Below are positions 27,257 through 32,642 of a stretch of DNA of 41,341 nucleotides, one piece after another (position 1 is the stretch's first letter; every line of letters begins with the position of its first letter). The stretch is from a virus (taxonomy: Duplodnaviria; Heunggongvirae; Uroviricota; Caudoviricetes). Position numbers and translations under genes: made by a program. The notes beneath the pieces were generated by a model, which was given only the letters and a program-made list of their open reading frames with translations, did no database searches and had not been told where the DNA came from. Where the stretch lies: IMG/VR virus record IMGVR_UViG_2718217863_000002. One strand, 5' to 3'.

Positions 27257-27553
27257 TTACCAGATAACCCTGCCTTCATTGTCGAACTCGGTAACCGTTC
27301 CGCCCTTCTCCATGCGTTGTTTAACCGAGTCGTGGCAGCGCTTGCATAGCGACTGAAGATTGTTCGGGTCGTGGAAGAGGGTTTCATCGCCCTTGTGAGG
27401 TTTGATGTGATCAACAACGGTTGCGGATATCACCTGATTTCGCCTGAGGTGAAACTCGCAGAGTGGTTGCTTCTGAAGCTGGTGATAACGCAGCCGGTAC
27501 CACCGTTTAGTGTTATAGAGATGATGCCAGGGTGAACTTGACGCCATATTCAC
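27257..27553 (-). CDS. HNH endonuclease (terminase-associated)
   Basis: CEFH ... DHIKPH ... NNLQSLCKRCH; 98 aa; GTG start. Confidence 0.8.
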   Translation of the reverse strand: MNMASSSPWHHLYNTKRWYRLRYHQLQKQPLCEFHLRRNQVISATVVDHIKPHKGDETLFHDPNNLQSLCKRCHDSVKQRMEKGGTVTEFDNEGRVIW

Positions 27554-27556
27554 TCC

Positions 27557-27586
27557 AATAAAAAAGCCACCGTTTAAAAGGTGGCT
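27557..27586 (-). terminator. rho-independent terminator ending the AT-rich module
   Basis: AGCCACC-ttttaaac-GGTGGCT then TTTTTATT on the minus strand, 22 nt after the stop at 27608. Confidence 0.6.
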
Positions 27587-27607
27587 TTCATAAATTACAA
27601 AGGGATT

Positions 27608-28084
27608 CTATAGAAGGTTTTTCTTTGCCATTCTTAGCTTATGTTCGAGATTTCTTATTGTTATCCCTAGCTCATTAACTTTCTGCTTGGTATATCGTTC
27701 TGAATATATCCAGTAGTCTGATTTCTTCTCACATATGTCTGACAACTCAGGAGAAATATCTTGAAACAAGAGACCGACACGCCTCCACTCCTTTGCAAGT
27801 TCAAGTTCCCTTTGAGCGTCTTTAACACCTTGGTGTGCGAAATCCCTCAGGTAGGCCCGATTATCTATCAATAAATTTGATAGCGCTTCCAACTTGGATA
27901 ATGTTAGCTCTCGATTCTGTTTGGACCATGACAAATAGCATTCCCATAATCCAGTAATAGTAGCGCTTATATATTCGCCCATATTTAACGACCTGATTGT
28001 GTGCAAGTAGTTAAACATATCACAAACAACCAGTATTTGCATACTGCAGTGCCTTAACTTACCTTTCCTACGTTTTATTGACAC
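27608..28084 (-). CDS. hypothetical protein, third gene of the AT-rich module
   Basis: ORF track, 158 aa (true start may be internal); AT-rich; followed by its own terminator. Confidence 0.45.
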   Translation of the reverse strand: MSIKRRKGKLRHCSMQILVVCDMFNYLHTIRSLNMGEYISATITGLWECYLSWSKQNRELTLSKLEALSNLLIDNRAYLRDFAHQGVKDAQRELELAKEWRRVGLLFQDISPELSDICEKKSDYWIYSERYTKQKVNELGITIRNLEHKLRMAKKNLL

Positions 28085-28176
28085 ACTGCAAAGATTCTCT
28101 ATTGATTACTTTAGTTATCGAACTTGGCTGCTGTATCGACAAAATCATTGAGCCAAAGAACGAACTAAAAATACTA

Positions 28177-28806
28177 CTATTTAGGGTTTCTTGATGCTTG
28201 CGTAGCTAAAAGCGCATACGCTGTCATGAAAATCATAGATATTAAATCAAAAGTCATCAGCATTCCATATAATAATAAAAAGATACTCAACACATGTGTA
28301 ATAAACCCAACCTGGAATAGTTTCAGAAAAAACTCACCCATCAGGACAACAGCATATACCATTAGAGGATAAGCCATATCGACAACCATTAACGATGCGC
28401 CAAATGTTTTATTTTTACCGTTATGTTTGATAAGATTTATTTTCTCAATGAATTGATTCGGAAGGGCAAAAACAACAACAAACACACCAATGCCAAAACC
28501 TAATATGCTCGGAAATATGGATAAAGCAACAAGGGTTGCGTCGAGACCTGCAGTGTTTGAGTTGGGATTGTAAAGCCCATCTCTGAAAAATGTCACAATC
28601 AACAAACTTAAAACAAAAGTAAATAAAACACCAGAAAGTACCCTCCGCACCCAATTTTTGAAATTTGCAATTCGCTTCCTTTCTGATAAAACTCCAGAAT
28701 TAGCATAAAAGTTGGCAATGATAAAAATTGCACCAACATATGGAATAGACTTAATTATTTTAAGTATATTCTCATGATTAATGTCCCATCCACCAACTTT
28801 CATCAT
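28177..28806 (-). CDS. polytopic membrane protein (4-5 predicted TM helices), second gene of the AT-rich module
   Basis: 209 aa; hydrophobic segments IPYVGAIFIIANFYA, VLSGVLFTFVLSLLIVTFF, ATLVALSIFPSILGFGIGVFVVVFALP, MVVDMAYPLMVYAVVLMGEFF, ITHVLSIFLLLYGMLMTF; start 1 nt after the upstream stop. Confidence 0.6.
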   Translation of the reverse strand: MMKVGGWDINHENILKIIKSIPYVGAIFIIANFYANSGVLSERKRIANFKNWVRRVLSGVLFTFVLSLLIVTFFRDGLYNPNSNTAGLDATLVALSIFPSILGFGIGVFVVVFALPNQFIEKINLIKHNGKNKTFGASLMVVDMAYPLMVYAVVLMGEFFLKLFQVGFITHVLSIFLLLYGMLMTFDLISMIFMTAYALLATQASRNPK

Positions 28807-28807
28807 A

Positions 28808-29743
28808 CTATCCTTTTCTAATTTTCTTTAGCAATCCACTTCCTGTTCTGGACTCATTATTAGCTGCATTAATTGTGTTTTTCACATCATAATAATAGTC
28901 TAAAATTGATGCCCTTTTTTTCATAGACTCAGACACACGTTTTCTTACAGGATAATCGGCCATTTTGAAAACTTTTTTCTTATTGCTTTTGTCTTTATAA
29001 GATATTTCAGTATTCCCAAACTTGCATGATAAACCTGCATAAACCAACGCGATTGTACTAACGTCAGTCATTATTGAGTCTTTGTCTGATGACTCTTTAT
29101 GCTCCAGCTTATCAATCCCTTTATCTTTCATTTCAGCCTCAACCCCCTCTAGCAATTCTTCTAGTCCTTCAATAAAATCATTAGAGTTAGAGAAAGTTAT
29201 TTCTGTTTTAAAGGAATAATATCCTTTAGACTCTTTTATAACATTATCTAGACTAGCAGAAGATGTTAATTCATCAACACTCATGCGAAAGGATGGATAT
29301 AATTTCCTGCGCGCATCTTTAAACACCTCATTAAGCACCTTATATAAAACACTTGCGCTAGGTAATGAAGGGCTATCTTCGATAGCAAGGATATGCAATA
29401 CAGGATCAAATACAAACCTATACTCATAAATCTTACTAGACTCGCCAAAACCAGCTGCATAAGTCTGAACTCTGCTAATAGTTTTTCTAACAACATCTAC
29501 CTTGTCAAACTTTAAAAAACGACCATAAACCATGTCCTCTCTAGCATTTATTTCATACGGAGCAAAAAAGAAATCATTCCTCAATGGAACAGCGATATTT
29601 CTTAAATCACCTTCCGATGACAAAACTTTGCGAAGTTTGTCTCCCAGATGCTGGAATAATTTAATATAACCCTCTTTACCAATATGTTTTTTACTATTGG
29701 TTAGAGGTAGCATCTGTATATTATAATATTTGTAAGTAGCCAT
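28808..29743 (-). CDS. hypothetical soluble protein, first gene of the AT-rich module
   Basis: 311 aa; ATG at 29743; charged, Lys-rich; no motif recognised. Confidence 0.6.
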   Translation of the reverse strand: MATYKYYNIQMLPLTNSKKHIGKEGYIKLFQHLGDKLRKVLSSEGDLRNIAVPLRNDFFFAPYEINAREDMVYGRFLKFDKVDVVRKTISRVQTYAAGFGESSKIYEYRFVFDPVLHILAIEDSPSLPSASVLYKVLNEVFKDARRKLYPSFRMSVDELTSSASLDNVIKESKGYYSFKTEITFSNSNDFIEGLEELLEGVEAEMKDKGIDKLEHKESSDKDSIMTDVSTIALVYAGLSCKFGNTEISYKDKSNKKKVFKMADYPVRKRVSESMKKRASILDYYYDVKNTINAANNESRTGSGLLKKIRKG

Positions 29744-29833
29744 AAATATCCATTGCTATGTGAGTGTAAACACACATCATAATTCAATGGATTTTGTAAC
29801 ACTTAGCAACGCAATGGATAATTGGGACTTGCG

Positions 29834-30052
29834 TCACATTTTTAGTTGGTTACAGTTTCTTTTAACTGTTCTGTTGTGGGTTAGAATGTCGCGCTTGGTC
29901 TGCCTATCCAGCACGTCGATATCGTGGTCGGTCAGGTAGATAATGCGAACCCAGCTGCAGGCCGTATCAACGACTACCGGGGCGGGTAAACTTTTCGCGC
30001 AGCTCCCGATCAACATCGTCATCAGGCATATGGCTAACAGTCTGCTGTACAT
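29834..30052 (-). CDS. candidate o-spanin (Rz1-like lipoprotein)
   Basis: 72 aa; MLIGSC lipobox, Pro-rich SLPAPVVV after the Cys; overlaps the 3' end of the Rz-like ORF in another frame. Confidence 0.4.
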   Translation of the reverse strand: MYSRLLAICLMTMLIGSCAKSLPAPVVVDTACSWVRIIYLTDHDIDVLDRQTKRDILTHNRTVKRNCNQLKM

Positions 30053-30242
30053 TACTGGCCCCTTTCACAACTTCCGCCTTACGTTCTGCCGCGGCGATGG
30101 TGGCGGCGGCGTTTTCTTCGGTACGTTGCTGATCGGCTTTGGCTTCCGCCTTATTGGTCCCGCGAGCGTGACCAATGCCGAATGCACCAGCGATAGTGCC
30201 CAGGATTACGACCACCAGCCCAGCAATAATTTCTAAGCTCAT
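29967..30242 (-). CDS. candidate i-spanin (Rz-like)
   Basis: 91 aa; N-terminal TM helix then charged Ala/Lys/Glu-rich region; ATGA overlap with the upstream lipoprotein gene. Confidence 0.45.
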   Translation of the reverse strand: MSLEIIAGLVVVILGTIAGAFGIGHARGTNKAEAKADQQRTEENAAATIAAAERKAEVVKGASNVQQTVSHMPDDDVDRELREKFTRPGSR

Positions 30243-30547
30243 CGTTCATCCCTTACTGATTGCGGAACCTTGCCAACCATCTGGCTATGCGAACCTACCT
30301 CGGAAATCCCAATACCGCTGATACCGATGTATTCCTGTCCGGTCTGCTTATCCTGAATGAGATAAACACCCCGCCAATTTCCATATGCAAGCCCATCGCG
30401 GAACTCAGACATTTTTGTCACGCTAATCCGGTCTGCATCTGCAGAAAGTTGGGATGATACAGCCATAGTCGATTTGGCAGGTTCAGGGCTGGCATCACAC
30501 GCAGAAAGAAGAAGCGCAAAAGCGACCACACATATTTTCAGTTGCAT
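30239..30547 (-). CDS. lipoprotein embedded in the lysis cassette
   Basis: MQLKICVVAFALLLSAC signal peptide with lipobox; 102 aa; coupled to endolysin upstream and Rz-like downstream. Confidence 0.5.
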   Translation of the reverse strand: MQLKICVVAFALLLSACDASPEPAKSTMAVSSQLSADADRISVTKMSEFRDGLAYGNWRGVYLIQDKQTGQEYIGISGIGISEVGSHSQMVGKVPQSVRDER

Positions 30548-30548
30548 G

Positions 30549-31178
30549 TCACACCACCAGTACCGATTTTGCTTTCAGGAAGCGAGCGCGCCGGTTATTA
30601 ATCCCGTTTTGTCCGCCGTTTATAATCTTCGTGACCCGGACAAGATCACCCGGATATTTCAAGCAACCTTTTGAGACATAGAACCATGCTGCACTACGGG
30701 CTGCGTAGGAGGACTGCTCCAGTAATTCTGGCTGTGCCACCAGATCAACCTTCAGCCCGTTGCCGCAGTCCCTGTAATTAGAAAGTCCGGTTATTTGAAT
30801 AAGTCCGCGCCCTCTATAAACCCATCCATCAGTTGCCCTGCTGTTACCCAACCGCTTGCTATAGACAATGTTGGCGATAGCCCGCTGGCGCTCCAGAGGT
30901 AACACAGTTTCCGACTGGCTGCGCCCGAGGGAATTGGCCTGATCCTGCGTTAACCTGCCGTAACGAACAAAATCAGCAAGCCCGGCGATGCTGTAGTTGA
31001 AATTCTCCACTACCCTGTTAAACCCGAGGCTTTCATGGCCGCACTGAGCAATGAACATTGCCTGGTCGATAGCGGAAGTGATGCCAAACTCTTTCATCGC
31101 GGCTGTAAAGTGCGGAAACCAGCGCGCAGCTAACCCGGCGCTGATACCAGCCGCCTTCTGGAATTGTGTTTGATTCAT
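30549..31178 (-). CDS. endolysin, GH19-like (chitinase-class lysozyme)
   Basis: 209 aa; FIAQCGHES ... GRGLIQITG; directly follows the holin genes. Confidence 0.75.
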   Translation of the reverse strand: MNQTQFQKAAGISAGLAARWFPHFTAAMKEFGITSAIDQAMFIAQCGHESLGFNRVVENFNYSIAGLADFVRYGRLTQDQANSLGRSQSETVLPLERQRAIANIVYSKRLGNSRATDGWVYRGRGLIQITGLSNYRDCGNGLKVDLVAQPELLEQSSYAARSAAWFYVSKGCLKYPGDLVRVTKIINGGQNGINNRRARFLKAKSVLVV

Positions 31179-31459
31179 TAGTGCCTCAGTGCATCAACCA
31201 GACGCGCTATATTCCCCCTGAACCAGAGAACCGCGCCGCAGATAAGAATGTTTGCCAGTACCACCAGCCAGTGGGATGACTCGTACAAGCCAAACAGGAA
31301 ACGGAAAGGGATGCTGGCATAAACCAGCACAGTGAAGTAAGCCATCAGCGATATCATGGGGCGGTGTCTTGACCCGTCGCGCCGGTAGAACATCAACGCA
31401 CCAACAATTACAGCGCATATCACCGCATTGACGATTGCGCTCGGATCACTTGTTACCAT
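31178..31459 (-). CDS. holin or antiholin-like small membrane protein
   Basis: Probable start MVTSDPS at 31459; predicted TM helices; overlaps the upstream holin end and the endolysin start. Confidence 0.5.
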   Translation of the reverse strand: MVTSDPSAIVNAVICAVIVGALMFYRRDGSRHRPMISLMAYFTVLVYASIPFRFLFGLYESSHWLVVLANILICGAVLWFRGNIARLVDALRH

Positions 31460-31841
31460 TGCTTGTCCCTCCTCCACGTAAGCGAGAGAGAATCCCAAAC
31501 AGGCTACCCAGATCCTGACTGTTAACGAACGTCAGCAATTTAATGGCTATTGCTGCAACGATTACAGCACCGAGAGCATCAAGCGGCCTGTCACTGTACC
31601 CCGTCCACTTTGAGAAGTAAGACCCCAGCAGAGGAGCACCAATCACACCGAAGATGAATGAAGTTATGAAGTAGCCCACCAGCTTTAGGCGGCTGATATT
31701 TACCGCCGTCGCGACATAGAACACTGCCCCAGCGAACGCACCAAATACCACGCCATAATCAATGCCAGTTGCAAGGCCGAACATACTGGCCCCCATCAGC
31801 CCGCCAGCAGCTACCGTTGTGCCAGAAACAGGATCGGACAT
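31446..31841 (-). CDS. holin
   Basis: 131 aa with several predicted TM helices, first gene of the lysis cassette after Q. Confidence 0.6.
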   Translation of the reverse strand: MSDPVSGTTVAAGGLMGASMFGLATGIDYGVVFGAFAGAVFYVATAVNISRLKLVGYFITSFIFGVIGAPLLGSYFSKWTGYSDRPLDALGAVIVAAIAIKLLTFVNSQDLGSLFGILSRLRGGGTSNGNK

Positions 31842-31970
31842 TTAGCCCCCTCTTTTTGCTGTGAGTCCTCTCAATCGAGGGGAAAGATAAATTCTATTTA
31901 CTTGAATACCGTATGTACTTCTAAGGGTATACTTAGGATCTTTACGTTCGATTTAACACTGGAGCAAGAA

Positions 31971-32567
31971 ATGACCAGTTCAGAACTTTTGGAATTGATC
32001 AAAAAAGATGTAAGTGATGTAAAGCAACAAGGTTCAGAAACCATCCCGGTCGATAATTTACTTCACTATCTTTCAGAAATAGATGTGACAGAGCAGCCAG
32101 AGGCTAATGCTTTAACTCTCGAAGGGATTAAACATCAAAACTCCACCCAATTGGAAATAATGAAAATTGAAAATAGCTTTCAAATAGAGTCTTTCAAAGC
32201 TGCTATCAGTATTGGTGCGAATGCTTGCAGAACATTTCTAATAATGAATGGAGGTGCAGCAATCGCTCTGTTGGCTTTTTTAGGAAATATTTGGAACAAG
32301 AATTCCTCAGCTGAAGCTGCGTCTGCTATCGCATCAGCTCTCTATCTTTTCTGTGGAGGAGTCGTTCTGGCCGGACTTTGTTCGGGCTTATCCTATTTCT
32401 CACAGTGCTGCTTCGCATCATCATATCTTGGAACCAAAAAATTTTATCTTTGGCTCGGGCATACAATAAATGCTGTAGCTTGTATATGCGGCGCCGGTTC
32501 CATCTTCATATTTGCTTATGGTTCCTATTGTGCTTATCAATCAATGATTGCTCAGTTAGTAAAATAA
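31971..32567 (+). CDS. membrane-anchored hypothetical protein (opposite-strand insert at the Q-holin junction)
   Basis: ATG at 31971 with GGAG RBS (MTSSELLELIKK...); soluble N-terminal ~100 aa then about three hydrophobic segments; AT-rich; own terminator. Confidence 0.5.
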   Translation: MTSSELLELIKKDVSDVKQQGSETIPVDNLLHYLSEIDVTEQPEANALTLEGIKHQNSTQLEIMKIENSFQIESFKAAISIGANACRTFLIMNGGAAIALLAFLGNIWNKNSSAEAASAIASALYLFCGGVVLAGLCSGLSYFSQCCFASSYLGTKKFYLWLGHTINAVACICGAGSIFIFAYGSYCAYQSMIAQLVK

Positions 32568-32570
32568 AAA

Positions 32571-32599
32571 AACCCGCTCATTGGCGGGTTTATGTTTTG
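32571..32599 (+). terminator. rho-independent terminator
   Basis: AACCCGC-tcattgg-GCGGGTT then TATGTTTTG immediately after the stop. Confidence 0.55.
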
Positions 32600-32642
32600 T
32601 TCTGCTGCTCAGTTCGCTTTAACGTCCCGAGCCTATCACAAT

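What the first reader, a model, noticed from the sequence alone, without database searches (positions are those of the whole stretch)
29834..31841. Lysis cassette with two holin-like genes and a lipoprotein between endolysin and spanins
Holin, holin-like, GH19-like endolysin, a 102-aa lipoprotein, an Rz-like and an overlapping Rz1-like gene are all joined by overlapping or 1-nt-spaced stop/start codons. The extra lipoprotein is therefore part of the lysis transcript, and the cassette holds two lipoproteins. Which one is the true o-spanin is unclear. The Rz-like protein is short at 91 aa.
Basis: inference. Interest (0 to 1): 0.35.

Follow-up and report, generated by a model that had tools for sequence, protein, structure and literature searches.

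The report
Phage lysis cassette with extra lipoprotein
This is an ordinary prophage lysis operon (two holin-type genes, an endolysin, a two-part spanin) carrying one extra gene for a small lipoprotein of unknown function that is not the outer-membrane spanin but recurs at this exact position in several unrelated lysis operons.

Summary
Six minus-strand genes at 29834-31841 are joined by overlaps or a 1-nt spacer.

- **The o-spanin is the 72-aa lipoprotein.** It matches a spanin family, starts in the +1 frame inside the i-spanin gene, has Ala at +2 and has two periplasmic cysteines.
- **The 91-aa length is normal** for this i-spanin family. Plaque-forming phage mEp390 has the same length.
- **The 102-aa lipoprotein is not a spanin.** Its +2 Asp predicts inner-membrane retention, it lies upstream of the i-spanin, and it matches no lysis family. 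Otherwise equivalent cassettes lack it (mEp390, Klebsiella phages, E. coli MLI106K4).

It belongs to a large uncharacterised exported family (360 clusters at 50% identity) with an invariant C-terminal DER and a GIY-x10-YIG-like hairpin.
- It has no Pfam, NCBIfam, PDB or fold match.
- It is under strong purifying selection (dN/dS 0.05-0.19).
- Copies 85-97% identical sit between endolysin and i-spanin in cassettes with unrelated endolysins (GH19, GH24) and unrelated spanins.
- Homologues at 68% identity or less sit in nin or early regions.

Best reading: an accessory periplasmic factor of the lytic cycle that acts on a conserved host or incoming-phage target. Its function is undetermined. Interest is moderate.

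The parts
31446..31841 (-). Holin-family gene 1 (131 aa, 3-4 hydrophobic segments)
   Evidence: PF16931 Phage_holin_8 E=5.4e-39 and phrog_198 holin E=2.6e-41. Hydrophobic segments at residues 29-50, 54-76 and 85-109. Good Shine-Dalgarno sequence (AAGAGGGGG).
31178..31459 (-). Holin-family gene 2 (93 aa from ATG 31459, 3 TM segments). It is either the holin or the antiholin partner of gene 1.
   Evidence: PF05449 3TM holin E=2e-18 and phrog_217 E=5e-34. GGAGGAGGG Shine-Dalgarno before the ATG at 31459. Homologues are annotated as 93 aa. It overlaps holin 1 by 14 nt.
30549..31178 (-). Soluble GH19 endolysin (209 aa, no signal or SAR segment)
   Evidence: PF00182 at 34 bits against a cutoff of 25.5, and phrog_181 E=2e-84. 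No hydrophobic segment. PGAP names it 'glycoside hydrolase family 19 protein'.
30239..30547 (-). Accessory lipoprotein (102 aa): signal peptide with lipobox LSA|C17, Asp at +2, a disordered linker of about 22 aa, and a small five-stranded beta domain ending in DER. Function unknown.
   Evidence: - **Family:** phrog_16585 (unknown function) E=2e-22. No Pfam, NCBIfam or PDB match.
- **Conservation:** C17 invariant and D18 at 90% or more in the enterobacterial clade.
- **Structure:** AF2 mean pLDDT 77.9, core 87-91.
- **Selection:** dN/dS 0.05-0.19.
- **Context:** the same slot in unrelated cassettes; absent from equivalent cassettes.
29967..30242 (-). i-spanin (Rz-like, 91 aa): N-terminal TM segment (about residues 4-26), Ala/Glu/Lys-rich periplasmic part, no cysteine
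   Evidence: phrog_1026 Rz-like spanin E=5.7e-33 over profile positions 5-84 of 85. Hydrophobic segment at residues 1-27. Homologues are annotated as Rz-like spanin in mEp390 and other phages.
29834..30052 (-). o-spanin (Rz1-like, 72 aa): lipobox IGS|C18, Ala at +2, Pro-rich start, periplasmic Cys32 and Cys67. It starts in the +1 frame 86 nt before the i-spanin stop (overlapped architecture).
   Evidence: phrog_1275 Rz-like spanin E=2.5e-32. Sequence and frame. The combination of 0 Cys in the i-spanin and 2 Cys in the o-spanin is the commonest one in the survey in PMC6139136.
32643..33221 (-). Q-type late antiterminator (DUF1133/Phage_antitermQ) upstream of the cassette. Presumed driver of the late transcript.
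   Evidence: PF06576 E=7e-93 and PF06530 E=7e-10. PGAP calls a 192-aa DUF1133 protein at the corresponding position.
32570..32591 (.). Bidirectional terminator-like hairpin just downstream of Q. A candidate tR'-like site that Q-modified polymerase would read through (inferred).
   Evidence: Stem of 8-9 pairs followed by a T-run on both strands.

Best explanation
The region is a Q-dependent late lysis operon of a lambdoid E. coli prophage.

**The lysis machinery**
- Two holin-family membrane proteins time and make the inner-membrane lesion. Which is the holin and which the antiholin is not resolved.
- A soluble GH19 endolysin degrades the murein.
- A two-component spanin removes the outer membrane. 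It is a 91-aa type-II inner-membrane protein plus a 72-aa outer-membrane lipoprotein, in the overlapped gene architecture.

**The extra gene**
- The 102-aa lipoprotein gene lies between the endolysin and the i-spanin and is translationally coupled to both. It is an accessory gene and not part of the spanin.
- Its product is exported, lipidated at Cys17 and, because of Asp at +2, predicted to stay in the inner membrane.
- A small beta domain would then hang on a flexible linker of about 22 residues into the periplasm.
- The same protein (85-97% identical) serves in cassettes whose holins, endolysins and spanins are unrelated. More distant homologues are expressed from nin or early regions, or by virulent phages.
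- It therefore most likely acts during the lytic cycle on a conserved host-envelope component or incoming-phage component, not on a specific lysis-protein partner.

**Most likely role (inferred, about 0.35)**
- A periplasmic exclusion or protection function against superinfecting phages or their tail enzymes, analogous in logic to T4 Sp/Imm or Ltp.
- A partner-independent modulator of lysis or egress is nearly as likely (about 0.3).

**What is shown and what is inferred**
- Shown: the gene structure, the family matches, the sorting signals, the comparative contexts and the purifying selection.
- Inferred: co-transcription, localisation and function.
For: - **Cassette identity:** Pfam and PHROG matches for five of the six genes, the junctions, and Q upstream with TerL downstream.
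- **The 72-aa protein is the o-spanin:**
  - it matches phrog_1275;
  - it starts in the +1 frame with an 86-nt overlap;
  - it has Ala at +2 and two periplasmic Cys, paired with a Cys-free i-spanin, which is the commonest combination in PMC6139136.
- **The 102-aa protein is not a spanin:**
  - +2 Asp is conserved in at least 90% of enterobacterial members;
  - +2 Asp is the E. coli Lol-avoidance signal (PMC6469965);
  - an inner-membrane-retained Rz1 allele is described in PMC6139136;
  - it matches no lysis PHROG.
- **It is dispensable by comparison:** the cassette lacks it in mEp390, E. coli MLI106K4 and Klebsiella phages.
- **It is a real, constrained gene:** dN/dS 0.05-0.19, with synonymous sites saturated between alleles.
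- **The slot is conserved across unrelated cassettes:** GH19 with a 91-aa Rz, SAR-type GH24 with Rz of 125-155 aa, and a 179-aa lysozyme. Identical mature lipoproteins lie next to Rz proteins of 125, 153 and 154 aa.
- **Other contexts:**
  - nin regions in Erwinia-like, Salmonella, Citrobacter, Hafnia and Enterobacter phages;
  - in Salmonella and Citrobacter it sits directly behind two tandem terminators, so expression depends on antitermination;
  - early or accessory regions of Drexlerviridae and jumbo phages;
  - no lysis PHROG among the 25 commonest families hit by 57 neighbours of distant members.
Against: - No experiment supports localisation, co-transcription or function.
- Several alleles have Arg at +3 (CDR...). 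By the rule quoted in PMC6469965, a basic residue next to the Asp weakens inner-membrane retention.
- A late-operon position is odd for an exclusion function, which is classically early.
- Constant placement and coupling between endolysin and i-spanin in at least three or four cassette types argue for a link to lysis.
  - P2 keeps a lysis regulator (lysA) in that very slot (PMC3091744).
  - A 3-TM DUF7940 protein occupies the slot in E. coli 41EC2.
- Absence in relatives shows dispensability only for those phages, not for this one.
Confidence: 0.8

Rival explanations
1. The 102-aa lipoprotein is a partner-independent lysis or egress factor. It would be a timing regulator or an auxiliary envelope-disrupting or envelope-protecting protein that acts on a conserved host structure (murein, inner-membrane outer leaflet, lipid-linked glycopolymers) in concert with whatever holin, endolysin and spanin are present.
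For: - It sits in the same slot and is translationally coupled in cassettes with unrelated components.
- It is under strong purifying selection.
- Precedents exist for extra lysis genes:
  - P2 lysA lies between K and lysB (PMC3091744);
  - Lcc6 in LambdaSo;
  - LysZ in corynephages.
- A different membrane protein (DUF7940) occupies the slot in a related cassette.
Against: - Homologues at 40-68% identity lie far from lysis genes, in nin or early regions and in virulent phages.
- Plaque-forming mEp390 and other phages lyse with the same cassette without it.
- It shows no similarity to any known lysis protein.
Confidence: 0.3
2. The 102-aa lipoprotein is a second or alternative o-spanin that pairs with the 91-aa i-spanin.
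For: It is a lipoprotein encoded next to an i-spanin gene within a lysis operon.
Against: - Asp at +2 predicts inner-membrane retention.
- The gene lies upstream of the i-spanin, not embedded in, overlapped with or downstream of it.
- It has no periplasmic Cys, and the i-spanin also has none. Only 21 of 526 surveyed systems have no cysteine at all.
- It matches no spanin PHROG, whereas the 72-aa protein does.
- It lacks the Pro-rich, extended character of an o-spanin and is predicted as a folded beta domain.
- It occurs without any spanin neighbour in many phages.
Confidence: 0.02
3. The lipoprotein is a minimal exported GIY-YIG-type phosphodiesterase or nuclease, tethered to the periplasmic face of the inner membrane. 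It might, for example, destroy incoming DNA or cleave a phosphodiester-linked envelope component.
For: - The family consensus reads RGIY-x10-YIG.
- hhalign puts this in register with the GIY-YIG hairpins of I-TevI, UvrC and YhbQ.
- 58 of 90 family members hit the same 20 positions of the PADLOC UzuA model. Uzume is reported to contain a GIY-YIG domain.
- Some database records label the protein 'GIY-YIG nuclease family protein'.
- His87 is invariant and lies 12 residues after the YIG glycine, the spacing I recall for I-TevI His31. Glu101 and Arg102 are invariant or nearly invariant.
Against: - The alignments cover only 16-19 columns, with probabilities of 0.5-5.6%.
- The Pfam GIY-YIG model matches none of the 90 members and not the window protein even at E<=1.
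- The position of the catalytic Arg holds Glu, and the domain ends before the region where the metal-binding Glu and the Asn lie in known enzymes.
- The AF2 model is all-beta and lacks the helices of the GIY-YIG fold.
- No exported GIY-YIG enzyme is known to me.
Confidence: 0.05
4. The gene is a passive moron with no role for the phage, and its position reflects only a recombination hot spot at the endolysin/Rz junction.
For: - The slot is variable among related cassettes: empty, holding the lipoprotein, or holding DUF7940.
- AT-rich morons flank the cassette.
Against: - dN/dS is 0.05-0.19 with saturated synonymous sites.
- The family has 360 clusters at 50% identity and includes virulent phages.
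- Start and stop coupling is preserved in every cassette type.
- Its GC content (0.49) is close to that of its neighbours.
Confidence: 0.05

Closest known systems
Lambda Rz/Rz1 and P2 LysB/LysC two-component spanins
   Same: - A type-II inner-membrane protein pairs with a small outer-membrane lipoprotein.
- The lipoprotein gene starts in the +1 frame inside the first gene and runs past its end, the overlapped architecture seen in P2 lysB/lysC (PMC3091744).
- The pair lies last in the lysis operon.
   Different: - The i-spanin is much shorter: 91 aa against 153 aa for lambda Rz, with no detectable sequence similarity to it.
- The cysteine pattern is T4-like (0 + 2) and not lambda-like.
Lysis cassette of coliphage mEp390 (Hendrixvirinae) and of Klebsiella prophages such as ST16-OXA48phi5.3
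   Same: - The same two holin families, a GH19 (epsilon15-like) endolysin, and the 91-aa and roughly 60-70-aa spanin pair, in the same order.
- Protein identity is 64-100% in the Klebsiella cassettes. mEp390 shares 82.7% DNA identity over the holin genes and about 70% i-spanin identity.
   Different: They lack the 102-aa lipoprotein gene. The endolysin is followed by the i-spanin after 7 nt.
P2 lysA (antiholin, encoded between endolysin K and lysB)
   Same: An accessory, non-essential gene occupying the endolysin/i-spanin slot of a lysis operon (PMC3091744).
   Different: - LysA is a 4-TM integral membrane protein that acts on the holin.
- The protein here is a lipoprotein with a periplasmic beta domain.
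- The protein here occurs with unrelated holins and also outside lysis cassettes.
Periplasmic or membrane-anchored superinfection-exclusion proteins (T4 Spackle and Imm; Ltp of Streptococcus phage TP-J34; T5 Llp / T1 Cor)
   Same: They are small exported phage proteins. Some (Ltp, Llp, Cor) are lipoproteins that act in the envelope on incoming phages. Llp is also said to protect progeny from lysed-cell debris.
   Different: - No sequence or fold similarity was found.
- Llp and Cor are outer-membrane proteins that block a receptor.
- Sp and Imm are early genes.
- No exclusion phenotype is known for this family.
GIY-YIG nuclease superfamily (I-TevI, UvrC, YhbQ; UzuA of the Uzume defence system)
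   Same: A GIY-x10-YIG beta hairpin that aligns in register.
   Different: - The similarity is limited to the hairpin.
- The protein is exported.
- It lacks the catalytic Arg, Glu and Asn in their usual places and lacks the helices of the fold.

Membership tests
Two-component spanin (i-spanin + o-spanin): the 91-aa and 72-aa pair | The i-spanin is a type-II inner-membrane protein with a single N-terminal TM segment | tested here: met
   One hydrophobic segment at residues 1-27 and none elsewhere.
Two-component spanin (i-spanin + o-spanin): the 91-aa and 72-aa pair | The o-spanin is a lipoprotein with an outer-membrane sorting signal (lipobox, no Asp at +2) | tested here: met
   - The N-terminus reads MYSRLLAICLMTMLIGS|C18-A-K.
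- The lipobox IGSC deviates at position -2 from the consensus [LVI][ASTVI][GAS]C. Such deviations are recorded in PMC6139136.
- A homologue has the lipobox IASC.
Two-component spanin (i-spanin + o-spanin): the 91-aa and 72-aa pair | The o-spanin gene is embedded in, overlapped with, or directly downstream of the i-spanin gene | tested here: met
   The start at 30052 is in the +1 frame, 86 nt before the i-spanin stop at 29967.
Two-component spanin (i-spanin + o-spanin): the 91-aa and 72-aa pair | Sequence membership in described spanin families | tested here: met
   phrog_1026 E=5.7e-33 and phrog_1275 E=2.5e-32. Homologues are annotated as Rz-like or O-spanin in phage records.
Two-component spanin (i-spanin + o-spanin): the 91-aa and 72-aa pair | At least one periplasmic cysteine in the pair, for disulfide-linked dimers | tested here: met
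   The i-spanin has 0 Cys. The o-spanin has Cys32 and Cys67. This is the commonest combination.
Two-component spanin (i-spanin + o-spanin): the 91-aa and 72-aa pair | Helical or coiled-coil periplasmic domain of the i-spanin, and physical complex formation | not tested
   Residues 29-60 are Ala/Glu/Lys/Gln-rich, but no coiled-coil or complex prediction was run.
Two-component spanin (i-spanin + o-spanin): the 91-aa and 72-aa pair | Required for outer-membrane disruption; complements lambda Rz/Rz1 mutants | not testable with these tools
   This needs an experiment.
o-spanin: candidacy of the 102-aa lipoprotein | Outer-membrane sorting signal | tested here: not met
   The sequence reads LSA|C17-D18-A. 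Asp at +2 is conserved in at least 90% of the clade. This is the Lol-avoidance rule for E. coli.
o-spanin: candidacy of the 102-aa lipoprotein | Gene position relative to the i-spanin gene (embedded, overlapped or downstream) | tested here: not met
   It lies upstream. Only its stop codon overlaps the i-spanin start.
o-spanin: candidacy of the 102-aa lipoprotein | Sequence membership in an o-spanin family, and constant association with an i-spanin | tested here: not met
   - It matches only phrog_16585, of unknown function.
- Many homologues have no spanin neighbour.
GIY-YIG nuclease superfamily: the 102-aa lipoprotein | GIY-x(9-11)-YIG hairpin | tested here: met
   G60-V-Y62 followed by 10 residues and then Y73-I-G75. 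The family consensus is RGIY...YIG. It aligns in register with I-TevI, UvrC and YhbQ.
GIY-YIG nuclease superfamily: the 102-aa lipoprotein | Significant match to the domain as a whole | tested here: not met
   - The Pfam model matches 0 of 90 members at E<=0.01, and no GIY-YIG hit appears at E<=1 for the window protein.
- hhalign gives probabilities of 0.5-5.6% over 16-19 columns.
GIY-YIG nuclease superfamily: the 102-aa lipoprotein | Catalytic Arg about 8 residues after the YIG glycine, then a distal metal-binding Glu and an Asn, in an alpha/beta fold | tested here: not met
   - Position +8 is Glu83.
- The protein ends 27 residues after Gly75.
- The model is all-beta.
- The residue spacings of I-TevI are from my own knowledge.
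Cor/Llp-type superinfection-exclusion lipoproteins | [quoted passage not shown] | tested here: not met
   The +2 Asp predicts the inner membrane. No named family matched in PHROGs, Pfam or NCBIfam.

The most novel reading that the evidence does not exclude
The DER-tailed lipoprotein family is a new class of lysis-cassette protein. It would be an inner-membrane-tethered periplasmic effector that acts on a conserved host-envelope target, possibly as a minimal GIY-YIG-like phosphodiesterase. It would tune or complete lysis and egress whatever holin, endolysin and spanin the phage uses. That would explain why one highly conserved protein has been retained at the endolysin/i-spanin junction of several unrelated enterobacterial lysis operons.
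Probability: 0.2. Interest if true: 0.7.

Novelty: new variant of a known kind. Interest (0 to 1): 0.4.

Why it matters
Lysis of Gram-negative hosts is usually taught as three steps: holin, endolysin, spanin. Recent work keeps adding required or modulating factors, such as Lcc6 in LambdaSo, LysZ in corynephages and a standalone SH3 protein in T1-like phages.

This finding adds a candidate to that list:
- It is a small exported protein family found in hundreds of phage lineages and in no curated family database.
- It is under strong purifying selection.
- In Enterobacteriaceae it has been kept at one precise place in lysis operons whose other parts are unrelated.

It is a cheap and well-defined target for a knockout or for expression in trans. 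Such an experiment could reveal either a new lysis or egress factor or a new periplasmic exclusion mechanism.

There is also a practical point for annotation:
- The gene should not be called an o-spanin.
- It should not be called a GIY-YIG nuclease, as two RefSeq records do.
- The true o-spanin start is mis-called by PGAP in the identical E. coli prophage.

Tried and rejected
- **Fold searches.**
  - The afdb50 library was unavailable.
- **Profile of 90 family members.**
  - Against PDB sequences it gave only chance hits with E>=0.5.
  - Against Pfam it gave nothing beyond the lipid-attachment site model.
  - NCBIfam gave nothing.
- **A recollection that failed.** I recalled that E. coli K-12 Qin carries ydfR between its endolysin and Rz. 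This was wrong: ydfR lies between the holin essQ and the endolysin rrrQ. I do not use it as a precedent for the slot.
- **The standalone SH3 (DUF7244) protein of T1-like lysis modules** (PMC13164509). It is a different protein at a different position, upstream of the pinholin. No Pfam hit of that kind was found for the lipoprotein.
- **The PADLOC UzuA hit**.
  - It is consistent across the family but covers only the 20-residue GIY-YIG-like hairpin.
  - I do not take it as evidence that the protein is a defence protein.
- **Internal promoter for lysogen expression.** No promoter-like site lies on the coding strand within the cassette. This is a weak negative, because the scan is a simple consensus match.
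- **DNA-level count in complete E. coli genomes.**
  - The window's allele was found in 10 of 5426 genomes.
  - This is only a lower bound for the family, because synonymous sites are saturated between alleles.


Full report
**Observation**

| Gene | Coordinates | Size | Family evidence |
|---|---|---|---|
| holin 1 | 31841-31446 | 131 aa | PF16931, E=5e-39; phrog_198 |
| holin 2 | 31459-31178 | 93 aa | PF05449, E=2e-18; phrog_217 |
| GH19 endolysin | 31178-30549 | 209 aa | PF00182 above cutoff; phrog_181, E=2e-84 |
| lipoprotein | 30547-30239 | 102 aa | phrog_16585, unknown function |
| i-spanin | 30242-29967 | 91 aa | phrog_1026, E=6e-33 |
| o-spanin | 30052-29834 | 72 aa | phrog_1275, E=2.5e-32 |

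- Holin 2 is counted from the ATG that follows a GGAGGAGGG Shine-Dalgarno sequence.
- The endolysin has no hydrophobic N-terminus.
- Junctions read from the sequence:
  - a 14-nt overlap between the two holin genes;
  - TAATG between holin 2 and the endolysin;
  - a 1-nt spacer between the endolysin and the lipoprotein;
  - ATGA between the lipoprotein and the i-spanin;
  - an 86-nt, +1-frame overlap between the i-spanin and the o-spanin.
- The cassette lies between a Q-type antiterminator (DUF1133/antitermQ) and the large terminase gene.
- No promoter-like site lies on the coding strand inside the cassette, and terminator-like hits there are at chance level.
- The cassette DNA (lipoprotein and spanin genes, 29834-30547) is 100% identical to a prophage of E. 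coli 5CRE51, and this allele is present in 10 complete E. coli genomes.

**Which lipoprotein is the o-spanin**

The 72-aa protein has every feature expected of an o-spanin:
- It matches a spanin family.
- Its gene begins in the +1 frame inside the i-spanin gene and runs past it. This is the overlapped architecture seen in P2 lysB/lysC (PMC3091744).
- It has a signal peptide with a lipobox ending at Cys18, followed by Ala, and a Pro-rich start.
- It has two periplasmic cysteines, while the i-spanin has none. That is the commonest combination among 526 surveyed spanin pairs (PMC6139136).

The 102-aa protein fails the same tests:
- It has Asp at +2, conserved in at least 90% of its enterobacterial relatives.
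  - In E. coli this is the Lol-avoidance (inner-membrane retention) signal (PMC6469965).
  - An Rz1 allele whose sorting signal was changed to retain it in the inner membrane is described in PMC6139136.
- Its gene lies upstream of the i-spanin gene.
- It has no cysteine beyond the lipidated one.
- It matches only a PHROG of unknown function.

The 91-aa length of the i-spanin is normal for its family:
- The PHROG profile is 85 positions long.
- Plaque-forming lambdoid phages mEp390 and HK639 carry homologues matching over 88-89 residues, annotated as a 91-aa gene in mEp390.

**The extra gene is accessory to this cassette type**

- Klebsiella phage ST16-OXA48phi5.3, E. coli MLI106K4 and phage mEp390 have the same two holins, GH19 endolysin and spanin pair. 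In all three the endolysin is followed directly by the i-spanin.
- In E. coli 41EC2 the slot holds a different gene, a 115-aa, three-TM DUF7940 protein.
- So the endolysin/i-spanin junction is a variable slot.

**What the lipoprotein is**

*Family and conservation*
- It belongs to a large family: 360 clusters at 50% identity with E<=0.001, nearly all about 100 aa long.
- In all, 170 of the 187 family proteins retrieved in the two searches end in Asp-Glu-Arg.
- Most members have a lipobox. Others have an N-terminal TM segment or a pilin-like N-terminus. The family is therefore exported and membrane-tethered.
- Hosts range from Enterobacteriaceae to Betaproteobacteria and beyond, and the contexts are mostly phage.
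- No Pfam, NCBIfam or PDB sequence match exists.
- Invariant residues are C17, D51, R59, D66, S77, G80, H87 and E101.

*Structure*
- An AF2 model built on 90 sequences has a mean pLDDT of 77.9, with 87-91 in the core.
  - It shows a signal helix, a disordered linker of about 22 residues, and five antiparallel strands.
- Fold searches with the earlier, weaker model found nothing significant.

*Selection*
- Between the window allele and alleles from other cassettes, dN/dS is 0.05-0.19.
- Synonymous sites are saturated in the more distant comparisons.
- This is a real gene under strong constraint.

**The GIY-YIG-like hairpin**

- The most conserved stretch reads RG(I/V)Y-x10-YIG.
- This explains three observations:
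  - two RefSeq records and one nr entry call the protein a "GIY-YIG nuclease";
  - 58 of 90 members hit 20 positions of the PADLOC UzuA model, and Uzume is reported to contain a GIY-YIG domain;
  - hhalign aligns the stretch in register with I-TevI, UvrC and YhbQ.
- The alignments cover only 16-19 columns, with probability of 5.6% or less.
- The Pfam GIY-YIG model matches no member.
- The usual catalytic Arg position is Glu, and the model has no helices.
- I therefore do not file the protein as a GIY-YIG enzyme. I keep this as a low-probability lead.

**Genomic contexts**

*Inside lysis cassettes.* Alleles whose mature parts are 85-97% identical to the window's lie between endolysin and i-spanin, with the same ATGA coupling to the i-spanin start. 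The cassettes are otherwise unrelated:
- GH19 endolysin with an 89-91-aa i-spanin.
- An S21-like pinholin with a SAR-type GH24 endolysin and an i-spanin of 152-155 aa, or of 125-129 aa.
- A 110-aa holin with a 152-aa GH24 endolysin.
- A 179-aa lysozyme.

The lipoprotein does not co-diverge with its neighbours:
- Identical mature lipoproteins lie next to i-spanins of 125, 153 and 154 aa.
- The window's allele is closer to one from a GH24 cassette (91%) than to alleles from other GH19 cassettes (88%).
- It therefore probably does not bind a specific lysis protein.

*Outside lysis cassettes.* At 68% identity or less the gene is elsewhere:
- The nin region of Erwinia-like, Salmonella, Citrobacter, Hafnia and Enterobacter lambdoid phages.
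- In Salmonella and Citrobacter it lies directly behind two tandem intrinsic terminators. Expression there would need N-type antitermination.
- Early or accessory regions of Drexlerviridae and of Serratia jumbo phages; homologues also occur in Pectobacterium and Burkholderia jumbo phages, where the context was not examined.
- The 25 PHROG families most often hit by 57 immediate neighbours of distant members include no lysis family. They include HNH endonucleases, regulators, SSB, NinB, ParB, a methyltransferase, terminase and portal.

**Inference on function**

- Every context implies expression during lytic growth: delayed-early, late, or in a virulent phage. None implies expression from the prophage.
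- The product is predicted to sit on the periplasmic face of the inner membrane.
- It is conserved while its lysis neighbours change.

The two best readings are:
- **(a) A periplasmic exclusion or protection function** against superinfecting phages or their tail enzymes. This has the logic of T4 Sp/Imm, Ltp or Llp.
- **(b) A partner-independent modulator of lysis or egress** that acts on a conserved host structure. Precedents for extra lysis genes are P2 lysA in the same slot, Lcc6 and LysZ.

I rate (a) at about 0.35 and (b) at about 0.3, and neither is shown. A second o-spanin role is effectively excluded, at about 0.02.

**Caveats**

- Localisation rests on the +2 rule. Several alleles have Arg at +3, which should weaken retention.
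- The promoter scan is a simple consensus search.
- The count of 10 E. coli genomes is a lower bound, because alleles are too diverged at synonymous sites for blastn.
- The second, better structure model could not be searched against fold libraries.

**Verdict**

- The cassette is an ordinary member of a known lysis-operon type.
- What remains interesting is the extra lipoprotein. It belongs to an uncharacterised, widespread and strongly constrained exported phage family with a striking positional association with enterobacterial lysis operons.

Noticed in passing
window 27500-29800 (minus strand): An AT-rich island (GC 0.30-0.39) lies directly downstream of the o-spanin. It holds a 311-aa DUF4747 protein (28808-29743, E=8e-25), an abutting 209-aa multi-TM protein (28177-28806) with no family match, and a 158-aa ORF (27608-28084). 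None has a PADLOC hit. It looks like a moron, or a candidate two-gene defence or exclusion module, between the lysis and packaging genes.
   Followed up: partly
window 31850-32600 (plus strand): A second AT-rich island lies between Q and the first holin gene. It carries an opposite-strand ORF (31902-32567, 221 aa; PGAP aa from 31971) with C-terminal hydrophobic segments and no Pfam, NCBIfam or PADLOC match. It ends at a bidirectional terminator-like hairpin at 32570-32591. The late transcript would have to read through it in antisense.
   Followed up: partly
window 29834-30052; L103 3727-3909: In the identical E. coli 5CRE51 prophage, PGAP annotates the o-spanin as a 60-aa 'hypothetical protein' starting at an internal ATG (MLIGSC...). 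That start leaves no signal peptide. The 72-aa start (MYSRLL...) gives a proper n-region and h-region. The i-spanin and the lipoprotein are also just 'hypothetical protein' there.
   Followed up: yes
L105 2157-2504 (E. coli 41EC2) and L105 2918-3211; L014 3781-4065: In a related cassette (holin + GH108 endolysin + the same spanin family) the endolysin/i-spanin slot holds a 115-aa, three-TM DUF7940 protein. An Acb2/Tad1-type anti-defence gene follows the o-spanin in this and another relative. The flanks of this spanin pair seem to be a cargo hot spot.
   Followed up: partly
window 30239-30547; RefSeq NZ_CM136177.1 and NZ_CM136176.1: The exported lipoprotein is labelled 'GIY-YIG nuclease family protein' in two RefSeq genomes and in one nr entry. 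58 of 90 family members also give sub-threshold hits to the PADLOC UzuA models. Both trace to a 20-residue GIY-x10-YIG-like hairpin. This is probably a source of mis-annotation.
   Followed up: yes
L061 3510-3683 (IMG/VR UViG_3300029337_000233): A truncated copy of the lipoprotein gene (57 aa, lacking the signal peptide) still abuts a 153-aa i-spanin gene. Here it is preceded by a NinG-like gene, not by a holin and endolysin. This appears to be a rearranged or decayed cassette.
   Followed up: no
L106 and L109, 2913-2981: In Salmonella and Citrobacter lambdoid prophages the lipoprotein homologue is preceded by two tandem intrinsic terminator-like hairpins with T-runs, in the gap after the replication genes. 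This resembles the nin-region terminators of lambda.
   Followed up: partly
window 28177-29743 versus L103 4000-5553: PGAP coordinates for the DUF4747 gene (261 aa) and its neighbour in E. coli 5CRE51 do not map exactly onto the window's ORFs (311 aa, with a 13-nt offset for the neighbour). The window therefore differs from that genome by at least one indel in the AT-rich island, even though the lysis cassette is identical.
   Followed up: no
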